Shown here: piece after piece, positions 19,086 through 34,570 of the stretch | How positions within the stretch are numbered: the first letter of the stretch is position 1 | Layout: every line of letters starts with the position of its first letter | From: Escherichia coli | GTDB taxonomy: Bacteria > Pseudomonadota > Gammaproteobacteria > Enterobacterales > Enterobacteriaceae | Reading direction: 5' to 3' (one strand) | Assembly: GCF_022846255.1 (NCBI RefSeq) | Contig: NZ_AP025682.1 | DNA: 64,000 bases | The notes under the pieces: generated by a model | Told to the model about the DNA's origin: nothing | Seen by the model: the letters and a program-made list of their open reading frames with translations, nothing else | The model's database searches: none | Position numbers and translations under genes: made by a program

Positions 19086-19289
19086 ATGTTTGGTAACTTA
19101 GGACAGGCAAAAAAATATCTCGGCCAGGCGGCGAAGATGTTGATTGGCATTCCAGACTACGACAACTACGTCGAGCATATGAAGACCAACCATCCCGACA
19201 AGCCGTACATGAGCTATGAAGAATTCTTCCGCGAACGCCAGAACGCGCGCTACGGCGGCGATGGTAAAGGCGGTATGCGCTGTTGTTAA
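19086..19289 (+). CDS. yjiX: Small DUF466-family protein accompanying CstA-like transporters
   Basis: 67 aa; conserved partner gene immediately downstream of btsT. Confidence 0.75.
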
Positions 19290-19299
19290 TGGAGAGAGC

Positions 19300-20256
19300 A
19301 TGAACCCGATTGCAGTTACCCTACTCACCGGTTTTTTAGGCGCGGGCAAAACTACCCTGCTGCGCCATATTCTTAACGAACAACACGGCTACAAGATCGC
19401 CGTGATTGAAAACGAATTCGGCGAAGTCTCCGTTGATGATCAACTGATTGGCGACCGCGCCACGCAGATCAAAACGCTGACCAACGGCTGCATCTGCTGT
19501 TCGCGCTCCAACGAGCTGGAGGACGCACTACTCGACCTGCTGGATAATCTCGACAAGGGCAATATTCAGTTCGACCGTCTGGTCATTGAATGCACCGGCA
19601 TGGCCGATCCTGGCCCGATTATTCAGACCTTTTTCTCCCATGAGATTTTATGCCAGCGCTACCTGCTGGACGGGGTGATTGCACTGGTGGATGCGGTACA
19701 TGCCGATGAGCAGATGAACCAGTTCACCATCGCCCAGTCACAGGTTGGCTACGCCGACCGCATTCTGCTGACCAAAACCGACGTCGCAGGCGAAGCAGAA
19801 AAACTGCGTGAACGCCTGGCGCGCATCAACGCCCGTGCACCGGTCTACACGGTTACCCACGGCGATATCGACCTGGGCCTGCTATTCAACACCAACGGTT
19901 TTATGCTGGAAGAGAACGTGGTCAGCACCAAACCGCGTTTCCACTTTATCGCGGATAAACAAAACGATATTTCGTCGATTGTGGTGGAACTGGATTACCC
20001 GGTAGATATCAGCGAAGTTTCTCGGGTGATGGAAAACCTGCTGCTGGAATCGGCAGATAAACTACTGCGTTACAAAGGGATGCTGTGGATTGACGGCGAA
20101 CCTAACCGCCTGCTGTTCCAGGGCGTTCAGCGCCTCTACAGCGCCGACTGGGACCGCCCGTGGGGCGATGAAAAACCGCATAGCACGATGGTGTTTATCG
20201 GGATTCAGTTGCCAGAGGATGAGATTCGGGCAGCGTTTGCGGGGTTGAGGAAGTAA
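19300..20256 (+). CDS. yjiA: CobW/P47K-family GTPase (zinc-associated)
   Basis: 318 aa from MNPIAVTLLTGFLGAGKTTLL (P-loop) with CICC motif; ATG at 19300 in frame with the longer ORF. Confidence 0.9.
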   Translation: MNPIAVTLLTGFLGAGKTTLLRHILNEQHGYKIAVIENEFGEVSVDDQLIGDRATQIKTLTNGCICCSRSNELEDALLDLLDNLDKGNIQFDRLVIECTGMADPGPIIQTFFSHEILCQRYLLDGVIALVDAVHADEQMNQFTIAQSQVGYADRILLTKTDVAGEAEKLRERLARINARAPVYTVTHGDIDLGLLFNTNGFMLEENVVSTKPRFHFIADKQNDISSIVVELDYPVDISEVSRVMENLLLESADKLLRYKGMLWIDGEPNRLLFQGVQRLYSADWDRPWGDEKPHSTMVFIGIQLPEDEIRAAFAGLRK

Positions 20257-20267
20257 TTTTAGATGAT

Positions 20268-20285
20268 GGCCGCCATGTGGCGGCC
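20268..20285. terminator. Hairpin between convergent yjiA and DUF4415 gene (GGCCGCC-ATGT-GGCGGCC)
   Basis: 7-bp GC stem followed on plus strand by a T-rich run; sits between two convergent stop codons. Confidence 0.5.
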
Positions 20286-20289
20286 TGAA

Positions 20290-20592
20290 TTATTTTTTAT
20301 TCTGATCGCGCAGCATCGCTTCACGTAAAATTGCGTTCAGGCGAGTTTGATAGCCTTTACCTGGTCGCTTCAACCATTCCATCACATCAGAATCAATACG
20401 CACCGAGGCCTGAGTTTTCAATGGCCGATAAAACTTACCGCGTTCTGCGTTAGACCATTGCTCATCGCTGGAAGGAGGGATATCACTGTAATCAATCTCT
20501 TCGTCGGATTTATTCGCCAGCGCCTTCAGTTCGGCCTCATGCTGCACATCGAGTGTAGAGGAGGTCCCTCGTTTATGTTTAACCATGCTCAT
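20290..20592 (-). CDS. DUF4415-family protein (BrnA-like putative antitoxin / RHH-like)
   Basis: About 100 aa from MSMVKHKRG with AGAGGAG RBS; sequence SDEEIDYSDIP...VRIDSDVMEWLKRPGKGYQTRLNAILREA matches the DUF4415 pattern as recalled. Confidence 0.65.
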   Translation of the reverse strand: MSMVKHKRGTSSTLDVQHEAELKALANKSDEEIDYSDIPPSSDEQWSNAERGKFYRPLKTQASVRIDSDVMEWLKRPGKGYQTRLNAILREAMLRDQNKK

Positions 20593-20730
20593 AGCGACTC
20601 CTCTCTTTACGATCTGCTTTTCGTGCACTGATGATTCGAATGTTGGAAATAGCATCACGTTTTAGGAAAAGATAGGGAAGTTGATATGAAGGGGCTGGAT
20701 GGCAGCATTGGGACACCATCCAGCACTTAT

Positions 20731-21465
20731 TCAAACCTGATAGCAATCCACCAAAAATGCCATCATTTCACTGGCATCTTTGCTGTGATAAAAGCGCACC
20801 ATTTTGCTGTTGAACTCCAGCGCACGAGCTGCGGGTACACTAATGGGATTGTAACCGTGGCGCATTAACCAGCCGTTCATCATATGGCGACTGGTACGCT
20901 TGTTGCCATCAAAGAAAAACTGAAAATAAGCACCAAATAAAAACATTGCCAGCGCCCCTTCGAATGGTGGCATCTCTTTTATTTGTGCCACACCTGCGGC
21001 GAATATTCGATTCAGTTCAGGTGCACCTGCTTCAGTGGCTGGTGGAAAATGAGCGCCCAGTTCACCGAGATGAACGCGCGCATTGTAATGTAACTCTTCA
21101 CCTTCGCCGCGAAAAACGCCCCACTCCAGCGCCTCATTACGCGCAATAATGCCGTTAAGTAACGTGAACGTTTTCTTATCAAGGTCAAAACGCCCGAATT
21201 GCACAAGTTCAATCAGTTTTTTTGCGCTATCTGCCAGGTTCAACACCTGCTCAGTATCACTGACCTTATGCCCGCCAACAGTGACGCCATCGAGCAACGT
21301 TTTAACTTCAACAAAGGTATAGGGGTTATTTTCCAGTTGCGCGGCATCCCAGACAAACCCAGCCATATGCGTTTTGAAGGTAAATAAGGCTGCGCGCGTA
21401 CCGACAATTTGCATCGCCGGGATGGCATTTGCATTCCAGCTCAGGTCCAGTAGTTTGGTTGTCAT
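20731..21465 (-). CDS. Fic/Doc-fold protein with degenerate active-site motif
   Basis: 244 aa; region FQFFFDGNKRTSRHMMNGWLMRHGY aligns to the Fic motif HPFx(D/E)GNGRxxR but has Gln in place of the invariant His and the Doc-type NKR; AAGGA RBS; 43 bp downstream of GmrSD-like gene. Confidence 0.55.
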   Translation of the reverse strand: MTTKLLDLSWNANAIPAMQIVGTRAALFTFKTHMAGFVWDAAQLENNPYTFVEVKTLLDGVTVGGHKVSDTEQVLNLADSAKKLIELVQFGRFDLDKKTFTLLNGIIARNEALEWGVFRGEGEELHYNARVHLGELGAHFPPATEAGAPELNRIFAAGVAQIKEMPPFEGALAMFLFGAYFQFFFDGNKRTSRHMMNGWLMRHGYNPISVPAARALEFNSKMVRFYHSKDASEMMAFLVDCYQV

Positions 21466-21508
21466 TAGAGGATCCTTGATTGCATGGTAAAGTGGATATT
21501 ATTCCATA

Positions 21509-23608
21509 TTAAACCATCGCGTTATCCATCTGCTTTTCAAATGCCTGACGAATTAATCCCATCACATAAGGAAGCTCAGAAAGATCGCTGAAACCTATTT
21601 CAACATCGCCATTGCCCCAACGGCCTATATCTGTGACATCTTTAGCCATACATTTTGGGTCAACCAGTTCATGGAATGGCATATTTAGTGATAAACGTAA
21701 GCGACTTTTTTGCGGCACCACATCAACAAAATTCGTCTCCGCTTTGAAGGCAACATAGAGCTTCAATATTTCTCGCGTAACCCCAGCGTCCAGCGTCATA
21801 ACGGCATCAGAAAGGCTGTCAAAAAGTACGCGGATGTGCGTACCTTCTTCAAGTTGCGGGAAATCAGCAAGGACATATCCCGTTCCTCGTTCAACGACAG
21901 TGCGATAACGAGCCAACACGTCTTCCGAAAGTTTGGGGATCGCCCAGACGTCTATTGCCAGCTCGGACAGACGTTCCGCTCTCTTTTGTATCGCTGCACG
22001 ATCCCATATTTCACATTGCCCTAACCCCGTGTTCAGGCGTAATGGACTTTCCTTAAAGCCACCTTTTATATCTCGTTTCTTCGCAAATGGACGGTCGCTG
22101 TAGCTTGAGTTATAGCCAGTTAACGTTAAATTACCCAACGTATGGAGCCACTTTTTATGGATACGCTTCCATTCCGGACCAAGGTCATCGCGCCACTTCA
22201 CCGATAAATTAGGGTTCTGCGGCATGATATGTTCAATCGTATAAGTGTCAACATAGACCCGTTCTTTACGATCGTGGTTTTCAAATCTGCGTAGCCAATA
22301 GCTGCGATTACGGAAGTTGTAGAGATCGCGAGTTTTCAGTTCACGTTGAAATTCATCATCATCCGGGAAACGACGGTAGGAAGGCAGATCCAGCAAATGC
22401 GCCGCAATGCTCTCCAGATAACGCTCTTTATCCAGCACTTTGTAAAACGTAGCGAAGGTTTTAGTAAATGAGTTGGTGGGAATTGCACAGACTGCGCGCC
22501 GGAAGATATACGACTCAATTAAACGCGTGGCACCTAAAAAATCCGCGGCAGAAAGGATCCCCTGTTTATAGTCGTGATAAAGCACCAACAGGAACGGCCA
22601 TGCAGCATCAACTTTCAGTTCCCGCAGATCCTGAAACGCCATCTTTAAGGTTTTATCCTTTTCGCTATCCAGCGCCATCGCACAAAAATAGTCAGCAAAC
22701 GTACGAATATCCGCAACCAGCGCCTCCATCCCGCTATCTATTACGCCAGGTTTTCGCGCATAGCGTTTAAAGGCTTCATAGACATCACCAATTCGCGGAA
22801 TCTCACCTGTTTTTACCGTCAGGTAATTACGCATAAAACTGTCGAAATAGTCAGTGTATCCCTTCTGACCAAACGCCAGCTCCATGGGCCGCCAGTAATC
22901 GTCGTACAGTTGGCTTTGATGTTCTGGCTCCAGCCCCATCAAAACATAGTTGCGTACTAGATCCGCCTGACTCAGCGCTTTTCCTGTAGAGTTCATGCTT
23001 TCGAAGATAAGTTGCGGATTATCCTGACCGCGATTCAAGGCGACATCCACAATCAGCAGTTTTGAAAGGCCCTGACATAACGCGGTGAAATTGCCGTGGA
23101 GTTTGCCTATTTGCTCATGGAAAAACTCAAAATTCTCTTTCACGCGTAGAGAGCAATTTTCTGCCAGCGGTTTTTGTCTAATCAATGCCAGCAGGCTTTC
23201 TCTGTCCGTTTGCGTAAGCAGTAACTTAAAACCACGCTCGCCTGATTCATACGGATTGAGCAGATAATAGTTTCGTAATTTCATGGCGGAGAAACCATCC
23301 ATCACCTCGTCATCGCCAAGATGTCTGGACAACGCTTCCAGCAATAACATCGCCGTTGTCAGGCGTTGCTGACCGTCAATCACCAGTAATGGCGAAATCC
23401 CCGAAACCTGATATAGGCCCTGTTCGATATACACCACCGAGCCGATGAAATGCGCCGGGATATCATCACGCTGCCCGGCACGTATTACATCGTCCCAGAG
23501 CTGGCGGCACTGTTCCTCTGACCATGAGTAAGTACGCTGATAAATGGGAATAACGAATTGCTGAGAGCGTTTTAGAAAATCGAGTAATCGGGCTTCGGTG
23601 GCTTTCAT
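21509..23608 (-). CDS. GmrSD-like Type IV restriction endonuclease candidate (DUF262 ParB-like NTPase + DUF1524 His-Me finger nuclease)
   Basis: 699 aa; N-terminal IPIYQRTYSW and DGQQRLT motifs (DUF262); C-terminal EHIMPQ...GNLTLTGYNSSYS motif (DUF1524); AGGAG RBS. Confidence 0.75.
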   Translation of the reverse strand: MKATEARLLDFLKRSQQFVIPIYQRTYSWSEEQCRQLWDDVIRAGQRDDIPAHFIGSVVYIEQGLYQVSGISPLLVIDGQQRLTTAMLLLEALSRHLGDDEVMDGFSAMKLRNYYLLNPYESGERGFKLLLTQTDRESLLALIRQKPLAENCSLRVKENFEFFHEQIGKLHGNFTALCQGLSKLLIVDVALNRGQDNPQLIFESMNSTGKALSQADLVRNYVLMGLEPEHQSQLYDDYWRPMELAFGQKGYTDYFDSFMRNYLTVKTGEIPRIGDVYEAFKRYARKPGVIDSGMEALVADIRTFADYFCAMALDSEKDKTLKMAFQDLRELKVDAAWPFLLVLYHDYKQGILSAADFLGATRLIESYIFRRAVCAIPTNSFTKTFATFYKVLDKERYLESIAAHLLDLPSYRRFPDDDEFQRELKTRDLYNFRNRSYWLRRFENHDRKERVYVDTYTIEHIMPQNPNLSVKWRDDLGPEWKRIHKKWLHTLGNLTLTGYNSSYSDRPFAKKRDIKGGFKESPLRLNTGLGQCEIWDRAAIQKRAERLSELAIDVWAIPKLSEDVLARYRTVVERGTGYVLADFPQLEEGTHIRVLFDSLSDAVMTLDAGVTREILKLYVAFKAETNFVDVVPQKSRLRLSLNMPFHELVDPKCMAKDVTDIGRWGNGDVEIGFSDLSELPYVMGLIRQAFEKQMDNAMV

Positions 23609-23892
23609 GAATGACTCCTGTCAAATTGCGCTGGCAAACGGCGTCATTATGCTGCGAATAAAAAATAAAAGTTAGCGTCTTTGTTTCTGCAAAAATACCA
23701 TTCCAGGATAAATCAAAATATATTAAGAAACACCTCAAAACACATTCATTAGAACAATTAATGCTTCCAATATATATTAATAACGCATTGAAAATGATCA
23801 TGTTTTTGATCATCACAACGATAGTTTGATATAACAAAGCATTCACTTCACATTGAATATCCCCCTCTTTTTCAGGGCAAGGAATGCTTTTT

Positions 23893-26238
23893 ATGTCATC
23901 AACTAATTTCAGCCAGATTGCAGCCTTCCTGTGGTCTGTCGCCGACCTGTTACGCGGCGATTTTAAACAATCACAATATGGGCGAATTATTCTCCCTTTC
24001 ACTCTTCTTCGTCGTCTGGAATGCGTACTCGAAACAACGAAAGACGCGGTCATTGCTGAGGCGCAAAAAGTAAAAGCCATGAAACTACCAGAGGACGCTC
24101 AGGAGAAAATGATCCTGCGGGCGACCAATGGCCTCACGTTCTTTAACGCCTCAGCGATGGACCTCAGCAAAATGGGGCAAAATGGCATACAGGACAACCT
24201 GGAAAACTATATCCAGTCGTTCTCTTCGGATGCCCGAGAAATTTTCGAACACTTCAAGTTCAGCGAATTTGTCGGGCAGCTCGCTGATGCGAACTTACTG
24301 TTCAAAGTGGTGCAAATATTCGCTAAAGCAGATTTATACCCCGGGCGCGTCACCAACCACGACATGGGGCTGGTGTTTGAGGAGCTGATCCGACGTTTTG
24401 CAGAGAGTTCTAACGAAACCGCCGGGGAACACTTTACCCCGCGTGATATAGTCAATCTGACCACCTCGCTGGTGTTTTTCGATGATGATGATGCACTCAA
24501 TAAAGACGGCATCATCCGCACCATTTACGACCCAACAGCAGGAACCGGCGGCTTTCTCTCTTCCGGCATGGAGTACGTCCACAAACAAAACCCCAATGCC
24601 GTGATGCGCGCGTTTGGTCAGGAGTTAAACCCGGAATCCTACGCCATCTGCAAAGCCGACATGCTGATTAAGGGCCAGGACGTCAGCCTTATCAAACTCG
24701 GCAACACCCTTTCCAACGATCAACTCCCCACAGAAAAATTCGATTACATGCTCTCTAACCCACCTTTCGGCGTGGACTGGAAAAAGATCGAAGGCGACAT
24801 CAACGACGAGCACAAACTCAAAGGTGCTGATGGCCGCTTTGGCCCCGGCCTGCCCCGCGTCTCCGACGGTTCGTTGCTGTTTCTGCTGCACCTGATCAGC
24901 AAAATGCGCGATGCCAAAAGCGGTGGTGGGCGGATCGGCATCATTCTTAATGGCTCTCCGTTATTCACCGGCGGCGCGGGCAGCGGTGAAAGCGAGATCC
25001 GCCGCTACATTCTGGAAGCGGATTTGCTGGAAGGCATTATCGCCCTGCCCACCGACATGTTTTACAACACCGGTATCGCTACCTATGTGTGGATTTTGTC
25101 GAATAAAAAAGCGCCAGAGCGCAAGGGCAAAGTCCAGCTTATCGACGCTAGCAACCTGTGCGGCAAGATGCGTAAATCGCTGGGGTCAAAACGCAATATT
25201 CTCGGGGAGGAGGATATTGGTTTAATCACCCGCACGTTTGGCGATTTCGAATTCGTTGCCACCACCACGCTTGCGGCGTTAGGCCTGGAGAAAGCACCCG
25301 AACAAAAATCCAGCCGGGGACGCCAGCCCGCAACAACCAAAACCGAGGCGGCAAAAACCTTTGCCAGCAAAGTCTTTCACAGCACCGAGTTTGGCTATCG
25401 TCGCATCACCGTTGAACGCCCGTTACGCCTGTCGGCTCAGATCACCGATGACGCCATTGCCACATTGCTCTTTGCGCCGAAGCCGTTTAACGCTCCGATG
25501 GCGCAACTGTATGACGCCTTTGCTTTCCAGTGGCAGGACGGTAATTACGGCGACTTAACAGAGATAGAAAGTGAAGCCCGCGCCATTCTTAAAGCCGATT
25601 TTAGCGAGCTGAAAGAGAAGCAAATTAAAGATCTGCTCGACAGCAAATTATGGCTGGTCCAGCGCGGATTAATGGAAAAAGCGCGGCGTATTCAGGCGGC
25701 GATGGGTATGCAGGCGGGCGGCAAAGATACCGTTAGCAATGACTTTAATCAGTTCCAGTTGACGCTGAAAGAGGCGTTCAAAACCGCAGGCGTGAAGCTG
25801 GATGCGAAAGAGAACAAGCAGTTTATTGATGCCATTACCCGCAAAAACCCGGACGCCGAGCCGGTAGTCAGCAAGGTACTGAAAGAAGCGGCCCAACCGC
25901 TGTATGGCGCGTGTGAGTACAACGGAAAGGTTGTGGAGTTTGAGCCGGATGGCGACCTGCGTGATAACGAGAATGTGCCGTTAAATCCGGCGGTATCTAC
26001 CAGCGAGTTGATCGAGGGTTACTTCAAAGCAGAAGTGTTACCGCACGCCGCGGATGCGTGGATTAACGCCGATAAACGCGATGCGAAAGATGGGGATATC
26101 GGGATTGTGGGGTATGAAATTCCGTTTAATCGCCATTTTTATGTTTATACACCGCCGCGACCGTTGGAGGAGATTGATGCTGATTTGGATGCGGTAAGCG
26201 CTGAGATTATGAAACTGTTGCAGGAGGTACATTCCTGA
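23893..26238 (+). CDS. hsdM: Type I restriction-modification DNA methyltransferase subunit M (with long C-terminal extension)
   Basis: About 781 aa; motif [11 protein letters not shown] and motif IV NPPFG present; start taken at second ATG (23893) with AAGGA RBS; stop overlaps hsdS start. Confidence 0.9.
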
Positions 26239-27503
26239 TGGCGGGGTTAAATAAGTATCGGGCGTATCCGGAGTACAAGGATTCTGGGGTGGAGTGGTTG
26301 GGGGAGATACCAGTCCATTGGAATATAAATCGGTTAGGACATTTTTTTGAGGAACGTAGAGAAAAGGTTAGTGATAAGGATTTCCCAGCATTATCAGTCA
26401 CAATGCAAGGGATTGTTCCTCAGCTTGAAACAGCAGCTAAAACGGATGCTGGAGACAATCGTAAATTAGTTTTAAAAGATGATTTTGTAATAAATAGTCG
26501 TTCTGACAGAAAAGGTTCAGCCGGTGTATCTCGGTTAAATGGCTCTGTTTCATTAATTAGCATAGTCATGCAACCAAAAAAAATAAATGTCAATTTTGCC
26601 CATCACCTACTCCGAAGCTATCCCTTCCAGGAAGAGTTTTATCGCTATGGGAAAGGAATCGTAGCAGATCTGTGGAGCACTAATGCCTCCGAGATGAAAA
26701 ATATACTACTCCCTGAAATTCCTGGCAGCGAAAGTGAAAATATTGCAAATTTTCTCAACTATGAAACCGCAAAAATCGATATCCTGATCGAGAAACAACA
26801 ACAACTTATTGAACTGCTGAAAGAAAAACGTCAGGCCGTGATTAGCCATGCGGTGACCAAAGGGCTAAATCCTGATGTGCCGATGAAAGATTCTGGGGTT
26901 GAGTGGTTGGACGAAATCCCTGAACACTGGAGGATATGCAAATTAAAAAACCTAGCTAAAATATGTAATGGACAGGATTATAAACTCGTTCAAGCAGAAA
27001 CCGGTTATCCAGTAATAGGCTTCGGGGGGCAGTTTGCATGGGCGAATACTTTTCTATATGATAAACCATCAGTCCTCTTGGGTAGAAAGGGTACAATTGA
27101 TAAACCATTGTATATAGACAAGGCATTTTGGACCGTCGATACAATGTATTACACGGAAGTATTTGATTGCATTATAGAGAAATATTTATATTATTTAGCA
27201 CTGACAATTCAGTTTAATCGTTATGCAACTAATACCGCACTGCCTAGTATGACTCAAGAACACTTAGGTAATTACTCATTTTCATTGTCATTCAACCTCA
27301 GTGAGCAAAAACTAATAATTAATAGCATTGAAAAATCATTAATTAAAATAGATGCCCTAACCGAAAAACAGTTAAAACAAATCGAACTCCTCAAAGAACG
27401 CCGCACCGCCCTTATCTCCGCCGCCGTCACCGGCAAAATAGATCTCCGCAACTGGACCGCCCCCATCGCCAAAACGGAAGCACCCACGGAGGCCAGCGCA
27501 TGA
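26238..27503 (+). CDS. hsdS: Type I restriction-modification specificity subunit S
   Basis: 421 aa; two AT-rich target-recognition domains separated by conserved repeats (KDSGVEWLGEIPVHW / KDSGVEWLDEIPEHW; LLKEKRQAVIS / LLKERRTALIS); TGATG overlap with hsdM. Confidence 0.85.
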   Translation: MAGLNKYRAYPEYKDSGVEWLGEIPVHWNINRLGHFFEERREKVSDKDFPALSVTMQGIVPQLETAAKTDAGDNRKLVLKDDFVINSRSDRKGSAGVSRLNGSVSLISIVMQPKKINVNFAHHLLRSYPFQEEFYRYGKGIVADLWSTNASEMKNILLPEIPGSESENIANFLNYETAKIDILIEKQQQLIELLKEKRQAVISHAVTKGLNPDVPMKDSGVEWLDEIPEHWRICKLKNLAKICNGQDYKLVQAETGYPVIGFGGQFAWANTFLYDKPSVLLGRKGTIDKPLYIDKAFWTVDTMYYTEVFDCIIEKYLYYLALTIQFNRYATNTALPSMTQEHLGNYSFSLSFNLSEQKLIINSIEKSLIKIDALTEKQLKQIELLKERRTALISAAVTGKIDLRNWTAPIAKTEAPTEASA

Positions 27504-30500
27504 GCAACGACATTACAAAAGAGCTCAACCTGCAAAACGACATCATCGCCCAGATGGTGGAAAAAGGCTGGATTGTCGGCAAAGGTGACGGCTACGACCG
27601 GGAACGTGCGCTATACGCACAAGACGTTCTGCACTTTGTGCAAACCACCCAACCGCAAGAGTGGGAGAAATTCGCCCGCGTTTACCCCAACGACAACGAA
27701 CGCCATTTCCTCGACGCGCTGGTTGCGCAGTTAAAAAAAGCCGACAGCAACGCCACCGACATCCAGACGCGCACCTGGGGTACGCTCGGCGTACTTCGCC
27801 ACGGACTGAAAATCCGCAATGCCCGTTTTTCGCTGTGTCAGTTTAAACCGGAACATAATCTCAACCCGGAAACGCTGGCGCGCTATCAGCAGAATATCTG
27901 CCGTATCGTGCCGGAACTGGTCTACAGCCCATATGCCTCAAATAGCGTCTTTGCAGAAACGGGCGTGAAAGCCAAAAAATGGCGCATCGACCTGGTGCTG
28001 TTTATCAACGGCCTGCCAATTGCCACGCTGGAGCTGAAATCCGAATTCAAACAGGCGGTGCAGAACGCCATTGCGCAGTACAAAAAGACCCGCCTGCCGA
28101 AAGATCCCGCCACCAATAAACCGGAACCGCTGCTGACCTTTAAGCGCGGCGCGCTGGTGCATTTTGCCGTCAGCCAGTATGACGTCTTTATGACCACCAA
28201 ACTCGCGGGTGACAGCACCTTCTTCCTGCCGTTTAACAAAGGCACCAAAGACGGAGGCGCAGGCAACGAGATCCCCGAAGATACCCACCGCTACGCCACC
28301 GATTATCTGTGGAATGAAGTGCTGCTGCCGGACAACTTATTAAAAATCCTCGCCAGTTTTGTCCATTTGCAGATTGAAGAAAAAGAGGACTGGAACGGGC
28401 TGAAAGCGAAGAAAGAGAGCCTGATTTTCCCGCGTTATCACCAGTGGGATGTGGTCAACAAACTGCTGGAGGCCGCAACGGTCGAAGGCACCGGCCATAA
28501 ATACCTGATCCAGCACAGCGCCGGTTCCGGTAAATCGAACTCCATTGCCTGGACCGCCCACCAGCTTTCTCGTCTGTACGACGTGAACGGGGAAAAACAG
28601 TTCCACTCCGTTATCGTGGTGACGGACCGCACGGTGCTGGACGACCAGCTTCAGGACACCATCTGGCAGTTCGAACATGCCGACGGCGTGGTCGGGCGCA
28701 TCAATAACAGAGAGGGCGACGGCTCTAAATCGGAAAAGCTCGCCAACGCGCTGGAAAACTCGCAGCCGATAATCATCGTCACCATCCAGACATTCCCGTT
28801 CGTGCTGAAAGCCATCGAAAACAGCGTCAGCCTGAAGCAGCGTAAATACGCGGTGATTGCCGACGAAGCACACTCCTCGCAGAGCGGTTCTACCGCCCGT
28901 CAGCTTAAAGAAGTGCTGATGAGCGAAGAAATGGATGATGACGTGGTACTGTCGTCAGAAGATATCCTGGATGCGACCATTGCCGCCCGGAAAGGCAGCA
29001 GTAACCTGAACTACTACGCCTTTACCGCCACGCCAAAATCCAAAACCCTCGAACTTTTTGGTCGCCGCCCACGTCCCGATGAACCGGCGTCAAAAACCAA
29101 TAAACCTGAGGCCTTCCACGTCTACTCCATGCGCCAGGCAATCGAAGAAGGCTTTATCCTCGATGTGCTGAAAAACTACACCAACTACAAAGTGGCGTAT
29201 CAGTTGTTGCAAAAGCTGGAAGACAAAGACCGCGAGGTCGATAGCAAACGGGCGAAGATTAAGCTCAACCAGTGGGTGACACTGCACGACCACAATATCT
29301 CGCAGAAGGTGAAGGTGATTGTGGATCACTTCCGCAAACATGTGATGCACCTGCTTGGTGGCCAGGCCAAAGCGATGGTGGTCACCAGTTCACGCAAAGC
29401 CGCTGTGCGCTACAAGCTGGCGTTTGATAAATACATTAGCGAGAACAATTACCAGAAAATCAGCGCGATGGTGGCATTTTCCGGGGAAGTTGAATTCCAG
29501 GAAGGCGACCATAACAGCCTGGCATTGTTAAACCAGAAATTTACTGAAATAAACATGAACCCCGGCCTGAAAGGGCGGGATATGCGCAAAGCCTTCGACA
29601 GCGACGATTATCAGGTGATGTTGGTCGCCAATAAATTCCAGACCGGTTTTGACCAGCCAAAGCTGTGCGCAATGTACGTGGATAAACCCCTCGGTGGCGT
29701 CGAGTGTGTCCAGACGCTTTCCCGCCTGAACCGCACCTATCCGGGCAAAGCGGAATCAGGCACTTTTGTCCTCGATTTTATCAACGATCCGGGCGAGATC
29801 CTCAAGGCATTCCAGCCCTATTACCAGACGGCGGAACTGACCGATGTCAGCGATCCGCAGCAGGTATTCGATCTGTTTGAAAAACTGCGCGCCACGCAGA
29901 TTTTCCAGTGGCATGAAGTCGAGCAGTTCTGCGAGGCATACTTCATCAAAAATAAATCGAATGCGGCGATCAGTAATATCTGCAAACCGGCGGTAGAACG
30001 CTGGAAAAAGCGTTATCTGATGGCGATAGACGCCTATTTGACCGCCAAAGAGATGTTCGAGCGCACCAAAAAAACGGGCGATACGGTGTTAATCACCAAT
30101 GCGGAAAACAGTTTTAAAGCCTGTAAGCAGGAGAAAGATCGCCTGGAAATATTCAAAAAGGATCTCGGCAGCTTTGTTCGCTTTTATGAATTTATGTCGC
30201 AGATCGTCGAGTACGATGACAAAGATCTGGAAAAACTGAGCCTGTTTGCCCGCCATTTGCGTCCGCTGCTGCATGAACAACGTCTGGAAGAGGATGAGGT
30301 TGATCTCAGTAACGTGGAGATCAGTCACTATCGCTTATCGAAAATCCATGAACAAGATTTACGCTTACAGGAAGAAACACCTGACTATACGCTGGATGCA
30401 AGTAATGATATTGGTACGGCAAAAGCGAAAGATAAAAAAGAGGAGTTTTTATCGCAGGTGCTTTCTCGGATGAATGAATTATTCATTAGCGACCATTTGA

Positions 30501-30763
30501 CCGACAAAGATATGATCAGCAATGCTTTTTCGGTGTATAACAAAATAACTGAAAATGAAAATGTTATGACACAAATTAATAATAATCCGCCAGAACAAGC
30601 TATTCTTGGTGATTTCCTCCAGGCAGTTGATAATGCTGTAATGGACAGTAATGACGCTCGACAAGAATTTATGTTGCAATATTTATCCGATCCAGTTCGG
30701 GCAAAGGGCTTTGCTTATCTGATGTTTGATATGCTAACGGGGAAAATTGCTTTGCCAACATGA
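27500..30763 (+). CDS. hsdR: Type I restriction enzyme R subunit (endonuclease/helicase)
   Basis: 1087 aa; N-terminal PD-(D/E)xK-like LELKSE region, Walker A GSGKS, DEAH box VIADEAHSSQ; ATGA overlap with hsdS. Confidence 0.9.
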   Translation: MSNDITKELNLQNDIIAQMVEKGWIVGKGDGYDRERALYAQDVLHFVQTTQPQEWEKFARVYPNDNERHFLDALVAQLKKADSNATDIQTRTWGTLGVLRHGLKIRNARFSLCQFKPEHNLNPETLARYQQNICRIVPELVYSPYASNSVFAETGVKAKKWRIDLVLFINGLPIATLELKSEFKQAVQNAIAQYKKTRLPKDPATNKPEPLLTFKRGALVHFAVSQYDVFMTTKLAGDSTFFLPFNKGTKDGGAGNEIPEDTHRYATDYLWNEVLLPDNLLKILASFVHLQIEEKEDWNGLKAKKESLIFPRYHQWDVVNKLLEAATVEGTGHKYLIQHSAGSGKSNSIAWTAHQLSRLYDVNGEKQFHSVIVVTDRTVLDDQLQDTIWQFEHADGVVGRINNREGDGSKSEKLANALENSQPIIIVTIQTFPFVLKAIENSVSLKQRKYAVIADEAHSSQSGSTARQLKEVLMSEEMDDDVVLSSEDILDATIAARKGSSNLNYYAFTATPKSKTLELFGRRPRPDEPASKTNKPEAFHVYSMRQAIEEGFILDVLKNYTNYKVAYQLLQKLEDKDREVDSKRAKIKLNQWVTLHDHNISQKVKVIVDHFRKHVMHLLGGQAKAMVVTSSRKAAVRYKLAFDKYISENNYQKISAMVAFSGEVEFQEGDHNSLALLNQKFTEINMNPGLKGRDMRKAFDSDDYQVMLVANKFQTGFDQPKLCAMYVDKPLGGVECVQTLSRLNRTYPGKAESGTFVLDFINDPGEILKAFQPYYQTAELTDVSDPQQVFDLFEKLRATQIFQWHEVEQFCEAYFIKNKSNAAISNICKPAVERWKKRYLMAIDAYLTAKEMFERTKKTGDTVLITNAENSFKACKQEKDRLEIFKKDLGSFVRFYEFMSQIVEYDDKDLEKLSLFARHLRPLLHEQRLEEDEVDLSNVEISHYRLSKIHEQDLRLQEETPDYTLDASNDIGTAKAKDKKEEFLSQVLSRMNELFISDHLTDKDMISNAFSVYNKITENENVMTQINNNPPEQAILGDFLQAVDNAVMDSNDARQEFMLQYLSDPVRAKGFAYLMFDMLTGKIALPT

Positions 30764-30828
30764 AAATACGTTGATAGCCGGGGTCGCACTTTCTACCCCG
30801 GCCATATTATTTGCAATAAGGAATAGCT

Positions 30829-31542
30829 ATGCTGAAGATGATTAAAGATTTTAAATTCAAAAAATACATTAAAAAATTACGTGAAGAAGGTTTGTTTTTT
30901 TATGTTTCTTTCGGGTTTATATTAACATTGTTAATGGAAGTTGATGACCGATTACCGTACTATCTTCAACAAGACTTCTTTTTTGATACACTTATAGGAT
31001 TTATGCCAATCAATATACTCTTTGTTTTGATTTGCATAAATGCATTTTTCATTTTCGTCCACACACTTATTTCACCTTATAAAGGTCAAAGAGTTGGTGA
31101 GAAATTTCTCTCTGAACTTGATAAAAGAACGCAACAAATTGGCTTTATTATTTCATTCATATGTTTTGGCATGACATTGTTTTGTGCTCTGGCGTGGTTG
31201 CTGTTTTTTGAGATGAATACTGAAAGTTACTACGCAAAATATACATTAGATTTTTTGGCTGTTTTTATCATTATGATTATGTTTTCTTCAGCAGTTAATC
31301 CAGTCATGAGAAGAATATTCCAAAAAATGAAGGAATCGGACTCACATGGAAATTCAAAAATAATTCTTATAATTATAATCATTACATTATTGCTACTATT
31401 ACCAATTGCGTGCATTATCAATAAAAATAAAACAATTGAAATCAATATTAAGAAAGAAACTTATCAGCAAATAAAAGAAAAAACAAAGATGAAACCAGAA
31501 GATTATATCAAAAAATTGATTGCTGATATTAAATTCAACTAA
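30829..31542 (+). CDS. Hypothetical polytopic membrane protein (AT-rich, orphan)
   Basis: 237 aa; about 5 predicted TM helices; very AT-rich with atypical codon usage; AAGGAA RBS; no similarity recognised to any named family. Confidence 0.55.
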   Translation: MLKMIKDFKFKKYIKKLREEGLFFYVSFGFILTLLMEVDDRLPYYLQQDFFFDTLIGFMPINILFVLICINAFFIFVHTLISPYKGQRVGEKFLSELDKRTQQIGFIISFICFGMTLFCALAWLLFFEMNTESYYAKYTLDFLAVFIIMIMFSSAVNPVMRRIFQKMKESDSHGNSKIILIIIIITLLLLLPIACIINKNKTIEINIKKETYQQIKEKTKMKPEDYIKKLIADIKFN

Positions 31543-31545
31543 TAT

Positions 31546-31572
31546 CTATATGTACCCTAGTTTCTTCCTAGG
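31546..31572. repeat. AT-rich near-perfect inverted repeat (TATATGTACCCTAG-N7-CTAGGTACATATA)
   Basis: 13-14 bp arms with one-base bulge immediately after the membrane-protein stop; not followed by a T-run on the plus strand. Confidence 0.4.
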
Positions 31573-31617
31573 TACATATAAAAAGTTAATATCCTGATTT
31601 ATTCTCAACATCCCCCC

Positions 31618-31782
31618 TCACTCCACATCTTCCCTGCGTAACCCAATATCCCTCAACCGCTCATCACTCATCTGCTGTAACACCCGCCGGGCCTGCATTT
31701 GCCGCCGCCAACGCCTCACTGCCTGCCAGAGTTGTACGATGCCAGTAAACGGCGCTTTGGCTTTGTTTTCGTGAAATTCCAT
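31618..31782 (-). CDS. yjiS: DUF1127-family small protein
   Basis: 54 aa (MEFHENKAKAPFTGIVQLWQAVRRWRRQMQARRVLQQMSDERLRDIGLRREDVE) with GAGGAGG RBS; below the 60-aa cutoff of the ORF track; divergent from yjiR. Confidence 0.7.
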   Translation of the reverse strand: MEFHENKAKAPFTGIVQLWQAVRRWRRQMQARRVLQQMSDERLRDIGLRREDVE

Positions 31783-31958
31783 CTGCTGCCTCCTCATCTT
31801 TCAGAGGCTTCATCATCCGTCTTCTGGCAGTTCACAATACAGATGCAAATATTAGTTTTATTTAACATACAGACAGGTTAAAACAGCATCTGCATCCGGT
31901 TTTTTAGCCTCATCTGTACCGGTTTTTCTCTCTGTATGGTCCAAATAAGGAATACAGC

Positions 31959-33371
31959 ATGACGCGTTATCAACATCTGGCGACTCTACTTGCCGAGCGG
32001 ATTGAGCAAGGGCTGTATCGTCACGGGGAGAAATTGCCGTCGGTGCGCAGCTTAAGTCAGGAGCACGGCGTCAGTATTAGCACCGTGCAGCAGGCGTACC
32101 AGACGCTGGAGACGATGAAGCTCATCACTCCGCAGCCGCGTTCGGGTTATTTTGTCGCACAACGTAAAGCCCAGCCGCCAGTACCGCCGATGACGCGTCC
32201 GGTGCAGCGCCCGGTGGAAATTACCCAGTGGGATCAAGTGCTGGATATGCTGGAGGCGCATAGCGACAGTTCCATTGTTCCGTTAAGTAAAAGCACGCCG
32301 GATGTCGAAACGCCCAGCCTGAAACCGCTGTGGCGGGAGCTAAGCCGGGTGGTGCAGCATAATCTGCAAACCGTTCTCGGTTATGACTTGTTAGCCGGTC
32401 AGCGAGTGTTGCGAGAGCAGATTGCCCGCCTGATGCTCGACAGCGGCTCGGTGGTCACCGCCGATGACATCATTATCACCAGCGGCTGCCATAACTCGAT
32501 GTCGCTGGCGTTAATGGCGGTATGTAAACCGGGCGATATTGTCGCAGTCGAATCCCCCTGTTATTACGGTTCAATGCAGATGCTGCGCGGTATGGGCGTG
32601 AAAGTGATTGAAATCCCAACCGATCCAGAAACTGGCATCAGCGTTGAAGCGCTGGAACTGGCGCTGGAACAGTGGCCGATTAAAGGCATCATTCTGGTGC
32701 CAAACTGTAATAATCCGCTGGGATTTATTATGCCGGACGCACGCAAACGGGCCGTTCTCTCTCTCGCTCAGCGTCATGATATTGTGATTTTTGAAGATGA
32801 TGTCTACGGCGAACTGGCGACGGAGTATCCGCGCCCGCGGACCATTCATTCCTGGGATATCGACGGGCGAGTGCTGCTGTGCAGCTCGTTCAGTAAAAGT
32901 ATTGCACCTGGCCTGCGCGTGGGTTGGGTCGCACCGGGGCGTTATCACGATAAACTGATGCATATGAAATACGCCATCAGCAGCTTTAATGTGCCGTCCA
33001 CGCAAATGGCGGCGGCAACGTTTGTGCTGGAAGGTCACTATCATCGCCATATCCGGCGGATGCGGCAGATCTATCAGCGCAATCTGGCACTTTATACCTG
33101 CTGGATACGGGAATATTTTCCCTGCGAAATCTGTATTACGCGCCCGAAAGGCGGATTTTTACTGTGGATAGAATTGCCTGAACAGGTCGATATGGTCTGC
33201 GTCGCGCGGCAGCTGTGCCGCATGAAAATCCAGGTGGCAGCAGGCTCGATTTTCTCAGCTTCCGGCAAATACCGTAATTGTCTGCGCATCAACTGCGCTT
33301 TGCCGCTCAGCGAAACCTATCGCGAAGCACTGAAGCAAATTGGCGAAGCCGTGTATCGGGCAATGGAATGA
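31959..33371 (+). CDS. yjiR: MocR-family transcriptional regulator (GntR HTH + PLP-dependent aminotransferase-like domain)
   Basis: 470 aa; N-terminal GntR-type HTH, C-terminal fold-type I aminotransferase-like region. Confidence 0.85.
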   Translation: MTRYQHLATLLAERIEQGLYRHGEKLPSVRSLSQEHGVSISTVQQAYQTLETMKLITPQPRSGYFVAQRKAQPPVPPMTRPVQRPVEITQWDQVLDMLEAHSDSSIVPLSKSTPDVETPSLKPLWRELSRVVQHNLQTVLGYDLLAGQRVLREQIARLMLDSGSVVTADDIIITSGCHNSMSLALMAVCKPGDIVAVESPCYYGSMQMLRGMGVKVIEIPTDPETGISVEALELALEQWPIKGIILVPNCNNPLGFIMPDARKRAVLSLAQRHDIVIFEDDVYGELATEYPRPRTIHSWDIDGRVLLCSSFSKSIAPGLRVGWVAPGRYHDKLMHMKYAISSFNVPSTQMAAATFVLEGHYHRHIRRMRQIYQRNLALYTCWIREYFPCEICITRPKGGFLLWIELPEQVDMVCVARQLCRMKIQVAAGSIFSASGKYRNCLRINCALPLSETYREALKQIGEAVYRAME

Positions 33372-33613: not shown

Positions 33614-34570
33614 TTAGTACTCGATCCATGGATCGCGCTTGCTTTCAGGCAAGGGCTGATCTAATGCCTGCATTTGCTCTGCCGAAAGTCCGGTATATCG
33701 TTGTATCCATTCAGGATCCGCCCCATTCTGCAACAACAATCGGAGGAGGCTCTTTTCCCCTTCTTCTTTCCCTTCTTTCCTCCCCCTCTCCCTTCCCAAT
33801 AGCCATCCATCATTATGAATTCGCTCTGCAATCGTCATTATTCGCTCCCTGTGTTGTGGCATTCGACTGGTTAGTTCGCTGATAAACTCTTTAAAACTCG
33901 CTTCATCGCCAGCCAGTAAAATGTAATTTAACAGCGCAGTTATCTGGCTGTCATTAGCACACTCTGTAACCAGTAATACTACCAGTTGGTCAATAAGCCC
34001 CATCAGATCGCGCTGGCGAATATGCTTTTGGATCAACTCCAACAGGGCGACTCTGCGATGCTGCACAATCTCGTCGTCTGGCACGACAGTGATATCCACC
34101 AGCGGGAACGCGGCGGTATAAAGCTTCCGTGCGGTAGTTGGGTCGGCAAATTCGTCCAGCCAGCACAAAGACCAGGGATAAGGGCTACGGCTACCGTGAT
34201 AAAACAGCATCGGGATGACCAGCGGTAGCTGCCGGCGTTTATCATGTTCGATATGGCGCTGCATCACCGCCATGGAATATCGCATCAGACGAAAGGCCAT
34301 ATGAATATCCTCACGGCTCTGATGTTCAATCACTACATAAATATAGCCATCGCCTTCACGGGTCTTTACCGACCACAGAATATCGGAATGTAGCGCCCGC
34401 AATTTTTCATCGACAAAGCTGGCGGATTCCAGTTTTAAGCTATCGAGATCGCACAGTTCACGTAAATCTTTGGGTAAGTGGATCTCCATAAAATCCCGCG
34501 CGGTGTCAGAGTGTGTGAGAAAGGATTTAAATAATGCGTCATGCGGCGTGCTGGTCGTAAAGTTTGTCAT
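33614..34570 (-). CDS. rpnD: Rpn-family recombination-promoting nuclease (PD-(D/E)xK, transposase_31-like)
   Basis: 318 aa starting [18 protein letters not shown] typical of YhgA/Rpn proteins; position corresponds to yjiP/yjiQ of E. coli K-12. Confidence 0.75.

What the first reader, a model, noticed from the sequence alone, without database searches (positions are those of the whole stretch)
23893..26238. HsdM is about 780 aa: roughly 280-residue C-terminal extension beyond a canonical Type I methyltransferase
Canonical HsdM subunits are about 490-540 aa. The methyltransferase motifs ([15 protein letters not shown]) here lie in the first two thirds, followed by a long acidic/lysine-rich extension (from about residue 470 to the end) of unknown function. 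The operon order M-S-R with overlapping stop/start codons also differs from the K-12 EcoKI arrangement (R then M-S), pointing to a different Type I family.
Basis: partly seen in the sequence, partly recalled or inferred. Interest (0 to 1): 0.45.

Follow-up and report, generated by a model that had tools for sequence, protein, structure and literature searches.

The report
Long-form Type I methylase, common family
The unusually long DNA methylase gene is real and intact, but it belongs to a widespread, routinely annotated family of Type I restriction systems whose methylase carries an extra folded module that nobody has characterised, so it is mostly ordinary with one small open question.

Summary
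Observation confirmed. An intact hsdM (781 aa from ATG 23893; 784 aa from ATG 23884) is followed by hsdS and hsdR with overlapping stop and start codons. Pfam and solved structures cover only residues 12-456. Residues 457-784 have no Pfam, NCBIfam or PDB match.

The extension is neither junk nor rare. AlphaFold2 models it confidently (pLDDT about 90) as a disordered linker, a beta-rich core with a length-variable helical insert, and a terminal helix. It occurs in more than 2,000 clusters at 50% identity, only in adenine methyltransferases and across many phyla. One PADLOC "MTase_I" profile covers the whole protein (E = 3.9e-280). NCBI names it simply "type I restriction-modification system subunit M". 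Versions of 781-787 aa occur throughout Enterobacterales.

The cassette sits in the E. coli immigration control region in about 2% of complete genomes. By sequence it is not Type IA, IB, IC or ID (HsdM 25-27% and HsdR 23-31% identity to the IA, IB and ID prototypes; a weak partial match to the IC enzyme). Type IE (KpnBI) could not be tested. M-S-R order is shared with Type ID, and EcoKI hsdM/hsdS also overlap.

Most likely this is a classical Type I enzyme with a family-specific assembly module. It is a new member of a known kind and of low to moderate interest.

The parts
23893..26238 (+). hsdM, the long-form Type I modification subunit. It is 781 aa from ATG 23893; an alternative in-frame ATG at 23884 gives 784 aa. 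Residue numbers in this report use the 784-aa frame.
   Evidence: ORF. Pfam HsdM_N and N6_Mtase. PADLOC MTase_I PDLC03029 covers residues 5-783 at E = 3.9e-280. It is 97% identical to 781-aa E. coli proteins named 'type I restriction-modification system subunit M'.
23917..24321 (+). HsdM N-terminal helical domain (residues 12-146)
   Evidence: Pfam PF12161, E = 1.5e-26. The AF2 model is helical here with pLDDT above 90.
24355..25251 (+). N6-adenine methyltransferase catalytic domain (residues 158-456), with [10 protein letters not shown] at residue 216 (SAM-binding motif) and NPPFG at residue 292 (catalytic motif)
   Evidence: Pfam PF02384, E = 4.3e-58. Motif positions. PDB HsdM chains align only up to about residue 460.
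25252..25356 (+). Thr/Ala/Lys-rich linker (residues 457-491), predicted disordered from about residue 463
   Evidence: pLDDT is 56-60 for residues 471-490 and no secondary structure is predicted for 463-491. Composition and net charge of +3 computed for the 39-residue segment 457-495.
25357..26163 (+). Family-specific folded module (residues 492-760). It is a conserved beta-rich core (strands 492-518 carrying [13 protein letters not shown]; strands 652-699 carrying [12 protein letters not shown]; helix 706-718 followed by the [11 protein letters not shown] motif; strand 739-744 carrying [11 protein letters not shown]) that encloses a helical insert.
25447..25836 (+). Length-variable helical insert (residues 522-651) within the module. 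It is absent or much shorter in relatives of 644-684 aa.
   Evidence: The gap pattern in alignment A2, where the C-terminal region ranges from 206 to 330 aa. BLAST of the window HsdM against the 682-aa relative in L011 skips window residues 529-659.
26164..26232 (+). Terminal amphipathic helix (residues 761-783), inferred to be the HsdS-binding helix
   Evidence: Predicted helix H761-783. Its role is inferred from EcoKI, where the helical C-terminal region of HsdM lies along the HsdS helices and is needed for assembly (PMC3510504; Powell 2003 as cited in PMC6158711). No sequence similarity to canonical C-termini was detected by hhalign.
26238..27503 (+). hsdS specificity subunit (421 aa). Its start overlaps the hsdM stop by 1 nt (TGATG), and GGAGG lies 10 nt upstream.
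   Evidence: PADLOC Specificity_I, E = 2.3e-112, matched in two stretches. It is 32% identical over its full length to the HsdS that follows a 662-aa relative.
27500..30763 (+). hsdR restriction/translocase subunit (1087 aa). Its start overlaps the hsdS stop (ATGA).
   Evidence: Pfam HSDR_N, SWI2_SNF2/ResIII and T1R_D3-like. NCBIfam TIGR00348 scores 183.9 bits, below its cut-off. It is 34-36% identical over nearly its full length to the HsdR of distant long-HsdM operons, against 23-31% over partial alignments to Types IA, IB and ID.

Best explanation
This is an intact, probably functional, classical Type I restriction-modification operon (hsdM-hsdS-hsdR, translationally coupled). It belongs to a widespread family that has been catalogued but not studied experimentally. 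In that family HsdM has the usual N-terminal domain and N6-adenine methyltransferase domain, then a flexible linker, a family-specific folded module, and a terminal helix. The enzyme should work like any Type I system. An M2S1 complex methylates a bipartite site chosen by HsdS, and addition of two HsdR subunits gives an ATP-driven translocating endonuclease that acts on unmodified sites. I infer, but have not shown, that the extra module is a structural or assembly element. The terminal helix would bind the HsdS coiled-coil. The conserved beta-rich core, which sits next to that helix, would form part of the docking surface for this family's own divergent HsdR, or would close the M subunits around the DNA. 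The helical insert would be a dispensable peripheral decoration. In E. coli the operon is one allele of the immigration control region, carried on a cassette with a GmrSD Type IV enzyme.
For: All three genes are intact, carry the expected domains, and have coupled junctions. The operon lies between yjiA and yjiS/yjiR, which is the immigration control region described in PMC3874165 and PMC12707154. The whole cassette is present in 114 of 5426 complete E. coli genomes at about 96-97% identity. The extension is a real folded unit: the full-length model has pLDDT 89.4 and pTM 0.82, and the C-terminal region modelled alone has pLDDT 90.9. It has strongly conserved motifs. It is widespread and always attached to an adenine methyltransferase: more than 5000 clusters at 90% identity, 2368 clusters at 50% identity with E <= 1e-3, and AFDB50 hits from many phyla that are, with one unannotated exception, all methyltransferases. 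Relatives examined in detail sit in M-S-R operons, one with an extra gene between hsdS and hsdR. Their HsdR is the same family as the window's (34-36% identity over nearly the full length) whether or not the helical insert is present. This fits co-inheritance of the HsdM core module with this HsdR family, and dispensability of the helical insert. The role of the HsdM C-terminus in assembly with HsdS is established for EcoKI (PMC3510504; Powell 2003 cited in PMC6158711).
Against: No member of this family was shown here to be active, and no methylome or restriction data were available. The assembly or HsdR-docking role of the module is inference only: no complex could be modelled and no co-variation analysis was done. 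hhalign found no similarity between the extension, terminal helix included, and the canonical Type IB or ID HsdM, so even the helix assignment rests on position and predicted structure. HsdM and HsdR score below the NCBIfam equivalog and subfamily cut-offs, which shows how far they are from the studied enzymes.
Confidence: 0.7

Rival explanations
1. The system is a member of the already named Type IE family (prototype KpnBI of Klebsiella pneumoniae), so the long HsdM is simply the known hallmark of that family.
For: Type IE exists as a fifth enteric family (PMC3874165, PMC12707154, PMC2481252). From my own memory of the KpnBI paper (Chin et al. 2004, not held), its hsdM is about 2.6 kb and overlaps hsdS by one base. 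That would also be a long HsdM, and the same overlap is seen here. Klebsiella carries 786-aa homologues that are 83% identical to the window protein.
Against: The remembered length (about 876 aa) differs from 781-787 aa. No source names any homologue KpnBI.
Confidence: 0.25
2. The extra module is a regulatory or effector-coupling platform rather than a passive scaffold. For example, it might sense anti-restriction proteins or stalled complexes, or recruit other defence proteins.
For: The module is conserved yet tolerates large insertions and replacements. Two relatives of 1130-1148 aa replace the terminal helix with about 425 aa that carry an Rx4-5H motif and match a PADLOC Csx1/Csm6 CARF+HEPN profile weakly (E = 1.9e-5). 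Relatives carry extra genes inside or beside the operon (AlbA_2/HATPase, Fic, and Fic plus GmrSD in the window).
Against: No enzymatic, nucleotide-binding or sensor motif was recognised in the window's module. The HEPN-like fusions are rare and the evidence for them is weak. Neighbouring defence genes are typical of any defence island.
Confidence: 0.15
3. The extension is an additional DNA-binding or recognition domain that contributes to target recognition or flanking-DNA contact, as in Type IIG and Type ISP enzymes.
For: There are several invariant or near-invariant basic residues (K496, R512, R515, R693, K731, R750, R759) and a basic disordered linker.
Against: There is no similarity to the Type I TRD (PF01420) or to any DNA-binding fold in the PDB. 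The middle region (residues 496-684) has a net charge of +1 and the last 100 residues have -14, giving -10 for residues 457-784. A complete two-TRD HsdS is present.
Confidence: 0.1
4. The long ORF is an artefact: a frameshift fusion of hsdM with a downstream gene, or a decaying pseudogene.
For: Nothing specific. Fusions do occur in this family; for example a 1021-aa Citrobacter protein carries a Methylase_S domain.
Against: The same full-length architecture (780-799 aa) is conserved from 97% down to about 37% identity across orders and phyla. The extension is confidently folded. hsdS and hsdR follow intact.
Confidence: 0.02

Closest known systems
Type ID R-M systems (StySBLI, EcoR9I, KpnAI; EcoMII of E. 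coli EC958)
   Same: It occupies the same chromosomal site (the immigration control region between yjiA and yjiS/yjiR), has the same hsdM-hsdS-hsdR order, and has an HsdR of identical length, 1087 aa. Of the three families compared by BLASTP (IA, IB, ID), it gives the best HsdM and HsdR scores.
   Different: HsdM is only 27% identical and HsdR only 24%, which is the inter-family level (25-33% and 17-26%, PMC2481252). The Type ID HsdM is 539 aa and lacks the module; hhalign found no match to it. The companion Type IV gene is mrr in EC958 and gmrSD here.
Type IC R-M systems (EcoR124I/II), the structurally best understood Type I enzyme
   Same: Among the named prototype families in the PDB, it gives the best sequence match for both subunits: HsdM E = 7.6e-26 and HsdR E = 2e-11. 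The PacII and S. thermophilus M subunits scored higher for HsdM. The pentameric R2M2S1 mechanism presumably applies.
   Different: The match covers only HsdM residues 153-460 and a 64-residue stretch of HsdR. Foldseek identity is 21-24% and TM-score normalised to the query is about 0.4, because the C-terminal 40% of the query has no counterpart. EcoR124 HsdM is 520 aa.
Type IA (EcoKI) and Type IB (EcoAI family), the other alleles at the same site
   Same: They are alleles at the same locus and have the same three-subunit logic. EcoKI hsdM and hsdS also overlap and are translationally coupled (PMC3510504).
   Different: Their gene order is R-M-S. Their HsdM proteins are 529 and 489 aa. Identity is 26.7% and 25.2% for HsdM, and 23% for HsdR against Type IA and 31% over only 81 aa against Type IB.
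Type IE (KpnBI)
   Same: It is an enteric chromosomal Type I family distinct from IA-ID (PMC3874165). From memory it also has a long HsdM and a 1-nt overlap between hsdM and hsdS.
   Different: Unknown.
PADLOC MTase_I profile PDLC03029 / NCBI 'type I restriction-modification system subunit M' proteins of 780-800 aa
   Same: The profile gives a full-length match (residues 5-783, E = 3.9e-280). Proteins of 781-787 aa at 81-97% identity occur in E. coli, Salmonella salamae, Citrobacter, Klebsiella, Serratia, Yersinia, Pantoea, Cronobacter and Xenorhabdus.
   Different: Nothing of substance. The window protein is an ordinary member, and its HsdS specificity regions differ between strains, as expected (two aligned pieces covering 96%).

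Membership tests
Type I restriction-modification system (generic) | Three linked genes encoding M, S and R subunits | tested here: met
   hsdM 23893-26238, hsdS 26238-27503 and hsdR 27500-30763 lie on one strand with overlapping junctions.
Type I restriction-modification system (generic) | The M subunit has an HsdM_N domain and an N6-adenine methyltransferase domain with SAM-binding and NPPF motifs | tested here: met
   Pfam PF12161 and PF02384. [10 protein letters not shown] at residue 216 and NPPFG at residue 292.
Type I restriction-modification system (generic) | The S subunit has two target-recognition domains separated by conserved helices | tested here: met
   PADLOC Specificity_I, E = 2.3e-112, matched in two stretches across the 421-aa protein. 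The window itself was not scanned for Pfam Methylase_S; relatives' HsdS proteins carry PF01420.
Type I restriction-modification system (generic) | The R subunit has an N-terminal nuclease and an SF2 translocase | tested here: met
   Pfam HSDR_N, SWI2_SNF2, ResIII and T1R_D3-like.
Type I restriction-modification system (generic) | Methylation of a bipartite site and ATP-dependent restriction of unmodified DNA | not testable with these tools
   This needs a methylome and phage or plasmid restriction assays.
NCBIfam TIGR00497 hsdM (equivalog) / TIGR00348 hsdR (subfamily) | Whole-protein score above the curated cut-off | tested here: not met
   HsdM scores 90.4 bits against a cut-off of 242.75. 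HsdR scores 183.9 bits against 284.55.
PADLOC MTase_I PDLC03029 (long-form Type I methyltransferase) | End-to-end match to the profile | tested here: met
   Residues 5-783 match profile positions 2-660 of 661, E = 3.9e-280.
Type IA (EcoKI) | High HsdM and HsdR sequence identity to the prototype (within-family values in enterics are mostly above 90%, PMC2481252) | tested here: not met
   HsdM is 26.7% identical and HsdR 23.1%.
Type IB (EcoAI) | High HsdM and HsdR sequence identity to the family. The O157 Sakai system, 99% identical to the Type IB enzyme EcoAO83I (itself 98-99% to EcoAI), was used for comparison (PMC2481252). | tested here: not met
   HsdM is 25.2% identical. HsdR is 30.9% identical over only 81 aa.
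Type IC (EcoR124I) | High HsdM and HsdR sequence identity to the prototype | tested here: not met
   PDB phmmer gives HsdM E = 7.6e-26 over residues 153-460 only and HsdR E = 2e-11 over 64 residues. Foldseek identity is 21-24%.
Type ID (StySBLI/EcoMII) | High HsdM and HsdR sequence identity to the family. EC958 EcoMII was used; its HsdR is 92% identical to StySBLI (PMC4659465). | tested here: not met
   HsdM is 27% identical and HsdR 24%.
Type IE (KpnBI) | Sequence identity to KpnBI HsdM and HsdR | not testable with these tools
   The KpnBI paper and sequence are not held, and no homologue carries that name.
Any Type I family (classical definition) | Subunit complementation and antibody cross-reactivity with a family prototype | not testable with these tools
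   The definition is given in PMC12707154 and PMC2481252. It can only be tested experimentally.

The most novel reading that the evidence does not exclude
The conserved beta-rich module of HsdM, whose fold has no counterpart in the PDB, is the specific coupling surface between the methylase core and this family's divergent HsdR, or other effectors as in the HEPN-like fusion variants. On that reading the cassette is a sixth, so far unnamed, enteric Type I family that forms a fourth allelic class at the E. coli immigration control region, a site currently described as hosting only Types IA, IB and ID.
Probability: 0.2. Interest if true: 0.5.

Novelty: new member of a known kind. Interest (0 to 1): 0.27.

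Why it matters
It matters modestly. The finding shows that about 2% of complete E. coli genomes carry, at the classical immigration control region, a Type I system that is none of the families (IA, IB, ID) usually listed for that site. It also shows that a very large clade of Type I methylases contains a confidently folded module of about 270 residues with no Pfam entry and no solved-structure relative. Defining that module would tidy the annotation of thousands of proteins. It might also explain how this family assembles or controls its restriction subunit. It does not point to a new kind of defence mechanism.

Tried and rejected
1. Type ID hypothesis. This was suggested by the immigration control region location, the GmrSD neighbour and the identical HsdR length. 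It was rejected after direct comparison with the EC958 EcoMII system.

2. Types IA, IB and IC. All were rejected by BLASTP and by PDB searches.

3. Type IE. I tried to read Chin et al. 2004 and Titheradge et al. 2001, but neither is held. Text searches for the KpnBI gene sizes found nothing, and cluster names gave no REBASE-style names.

5. The extension as an insertion into a canonical post-catalytic hairpin plus helix. hhalign of the extension profile against the Type ID and Type IB HsdM found nothing, so this idea is kept only as a weak structural inference.

6. M-S gene fusion as the explanation for the 1130-1148-aa relatives. This was rejected: they have no Methylase_S domain, and they carry a HEPN-like tail instead.

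7. Literature on long HsdM proteins or C-terminal extensions. Nothing relevant was found.

8. The V. cholerae VPI-2 Type I system as a characterised family member. V. cholerae methyltransferase fragments share the fold at about 30% identity, but the paper gives no HsdM length or sequence, so the link is unproven.
Full report
**1. What is in the sequence**

The window is Escherichia coli-like DNA. The flanking btsT-yjiX-yjiA segment is 98.4% identical to E. coli chromosomes.

Between yjiA (19216-20256) and yjiS/yjiR (yjiR at 31959-33371) lies a cassette. On the minus strand it carries a BrnA-like antitoxin, a Fic protein and a 699-aa GmrSD/DUF262 Type IV enzyme. On the plus strand it carries hsdM (23884/23893-26238), hsdS (26238-27503), hsdR (27500-30763) and a 237-aa hypothetical membrane ORF.

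This is the "immigration control region" (ICR), the variable defence island bounded by yjiA and yjiS or yjiN (PMC3874165, PMC12707154).

An upstream in-frame ATG gives 784 aa, and I use the 784-aa numbering throughout. AAGGA lies about 9 nt upstream of 23893, which favours the 781-aa start.

The junctions are TGATG (a 1-nt overlap between hsdM and hsdS) and ATGA (a 4-nt overlap between hsdS and hsdR). Each has GGAGG upstream.

**2.

- Pfam finds HsdM_N (residues 12-146) and N6_Mtase (158-456), and nothing after residue 456.
- NCBIfam's hsdM model matches only residues 162-448 and scores below its cut-off.
- Every solved HsdM aligns only up to about residue 460.
- The motifs [10 protein letters not shown] and NPPFG start at residues 216 and 292.
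- The other three Type I families found at this locus have HsdM proteins of 529 aa (EcoKI), 489 aa (Type IB) and 539 aa (Type ID).

So about 325 residues are extra. The description "acidic/lysine-rich" is only mildly true: D+E is 15.5% and K+R is 12.5% overall, and only the last 100 residues are distinctly acidic.

**3. What the extension is**

It is a real, folded, conserved unit. AlphaFold2, run with an 85-sequence alignment, gives pLDDT 89.4 and pTM 0.82 for the whole protein. The C-terminal region modelled alone gives pLDDT 90.9.

The predicted anatomy is as follows:

- a disordered Thr/Ala/Lys-rich linker (about residues 463-491);
- beta strands 492-518, carrying the almost invariant [13 protein letters not shown];
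- a helical sub-domain, 522-651;
- more strands, 652-699, carrying [12 protein letters not shown];
- helix 706-718, followed by the [11 protein letters not shown] motif;
- strand 739-744, carrying [11 protein letters not shown];
- a terminal helix, 761-783.

In an alignment of 29 diverse C-terminal regions the two ends are strongly conserved. The helical middle varies greatly in length, so that the whole region ranges from 206 to 330 aa. A 682-aa relative simply lacks window residues about 529-659.

The module has no detectable relative among known domains or solved structures:

- Pfam and NCBIfam give nothing.
- PDB phmmer and profile hmmsearch give only noise.
- The full model matches PDB HsdM chains over only about 55% of its length, with TM-score normalised to the query of about 0.44.

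**4. How common it is**

It is very common.

- The extension alone retrieves more than 5000 clusters at 90% identity.
- It retrieves 2368 clusters at 50% identity with E <= 1e-3, and 976 with E <= 1e-10.
- Foldseek against AFDB50 gives 227 hits with E <= 0.001. Apart from one unannotated protein, the 50 listed are all adenine methyltransferases, from Proteobacteria, Planctomycetes, Bacteroidota, Fusobacteria, Kiritimatiellota and others.
- Full-length proteins of 780-799 aa at 81-97% identity occur in E. coli, Salmonella salamae, Citrobacter, Klebsiella, Serratia, Yersinia, Pantoea, Cronobacter and Xenorhabdus. All are named "type I restriction-modification system subunit M" or an equivalent.
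- One PADLOC MTase_I profile (PDLC03029) matches the protein end to end at E = 3.9e-280.
- In E. coli the gene is present in 116 of 5426 complete genomes, and the whole cassette in 114 of them.

**5. Which Type I family**

Families are defined by complementation, by cross-reactivity, and in practice by high HsdM and HsdR identity. Inter-family values are 25-33% for HsdM and 17-26% for HsdR (PMC2481252, PMC12707154).

I fetched the ICR alleles of K-12 (Type IA), O157 Sakai (Type IB, 99% identical to the Type IB enzyme EcoAO83I according to PMC2481252) and EC958 (Type ID; its HsdR is 92% identical to StySBLI according to PMC4659465), and compared them with the window proteins.

| Family | HsdM identity | HsdR identity |
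|---|---|---|
| Type IA (EcoKI) | 26.7% | 23% |
| Type IB (Sakai) | 25.2% | 31% over only 81 aa |
| Type ID (EcoMII) | 26.9% | 24% |

EcoR124 (Type IC) matches only HsdM residues 153-460 (E = 7.6e-26) and 64 residues of HsdR.

So the system is none of Types IA-ID by sequence. Type IE (KpnBI) could not be tested, because neither the paper nor the sequence was available. From memory only, KpnBI also has a long hsdM (about 2.6 kb) that overlaps hsdS by one base, so membership of Type IE or proximity to it remains possible.

Distant long-HsdM operons carry an HsdR that is 34-36% identical to the window's over nearly its whole length, whether or not the helical insert is present. The long HsdM and this HsdR therefore form one coherent and widely distributed family.

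**6.

"A different Type I family" is right. The supporting arguments are weaker. EcoKI hsdM and hsdS also overlap and are translationally coupled (PMC3510504). M-S-R order is shared with the Type ID system at the same site.

**7. Mechanism**

- Shown: the operon has intact genes, canonical catalytic domains, coupled translation signals, conserved operon context, and a conserved and confidently folded extra module.
- Inferred from the established Type I model (M2S1 methylase, R2M2S1 endonuclease): the system methylates a bipartite site chosen by HsdS and restricts unmodified DNA by ATP-driven translocation.
- Inferred with less certainty: the terminal helix is the HsdS-binding element. The basis is analogy with EcoKI, whose helical C-terminal region lies along the HsdS helices and is required for assembly (PMC3510504; Powell 2003 cited in PMC6158711).
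- Also inferred with less certainty: the adjacent beta-rich core helps dock this family's own HsdR or closes the complex on DNA, and the variable helical insert is peripheral.

hhalign found no sequence link between the extension and canonical HsdM C-termini, and no complex could be modelled. This part is therefore a hypothesis.

Rival readings are listed separately with their tests: Type IE membership, a regulatory or effector platform, an extra DNA-binding domain, and an artefact.

**8. Verdict**

The feature is real, but it is an ordinary member of a large, routinely annotated and experimentally unstudied Type I family.

Two things are mildly interesting. The module is a widespread domain without a Pfam entry or a structural relative. 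This family is also a fourth allelic class at the E. coli ICR, which a recent review describes as hosting Types IA, IB and ID (PMC12707154).

Novelty: new member of a known kind. Interest: about 0.27.

Noticed in passing
L010 7001-10447 (protein P0123, 1148 aa); also P0134 (1130 aa): Two relatives are long-family HsdM proteins up to the '...IGIVGYEI' strand (60% and 49% identical to the window HsdM). In both, the terminal helix is replaced by about 425 aa that carry an Rx4-5H motif (LRNDIAHRG / IRNTSVGHG). This tail gives a weak PADLOC Csx1/Csm6 CARF+HEPN match (E = 1.9e-5) and weak half-TRD matches (E about 1e-3). Pfam HEPN_RiboL-PSP reaches only E = 0.047. These may be HsdM-HEPN nuclease fusions.
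   Followed up: partly
window 30829-31542 (+): A 237-aa hypothetical ORF lies directly after hsdR. It is AT-rich (GC about 0.38 in the 30-32 kb bin) and its sequence looks strongly hydrophobic and membrane-like. It is conserved with the cassette in E. coli N3 (WP_097728008.1). It has no NCBIfam or PADLOC match.
   Followed up: partly
window 21509-23608 (-): An intact 699-aa GmrSD/DUF262 Type IV restriction enzyme is transcribed divergently from hsdM (PADLOC Orf5, E = 7.9e-215). In strain N3 the same gene is split by an IS4 insertion.
   Followed up: partly
window 20290-21465 (-): A BrnA-family antitoxin gene (20290-20658) is accompanied by only a remnant of the BrnT toxin in the N3 annotation. 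A 244-aa Fic-family protein (20731-21465) lies between yjiA and gmrSD. A Fic gene also sits directly upstream of the long hsdM in an unrelated groundwater metagenome contig (L012).
   Followed up: no
L005/L006/L007 11766-13409: In a distant long-HsdM operon, on an integrase-bearing island, a 547-aa AlbA_2 (Schlafen-like) plus HATPase_c_4 gene is inserted between hsdS and hsdR. This resembles the embedded TgvAB genes in the V. cholerae VPI-2 Type I operon (PMC11411939).
   Followed up: no
window 20257-31950 versus E. coli genomes: The complete brnA-fic-gmrSD-hsdMSR-orf237 cassette occurs in 114 of 5426 complete E. coli genomes. It aligns in two pieces covering 96% of the query, so a small part of the cassette differs between strains; I presume this is the hsdS specificity regions, but the gap was not located. 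A recent review lists only Types IA, IB and ID for this locus (PMC12707154).
   Followed up: partly
window 33614-34570 (-): An Rpn-family recombination-promoting nuclease (318 aa) lies at the far edge of the ICR, next to yjiR and mdtM, as in other E. coli strains.
   Followed up: no
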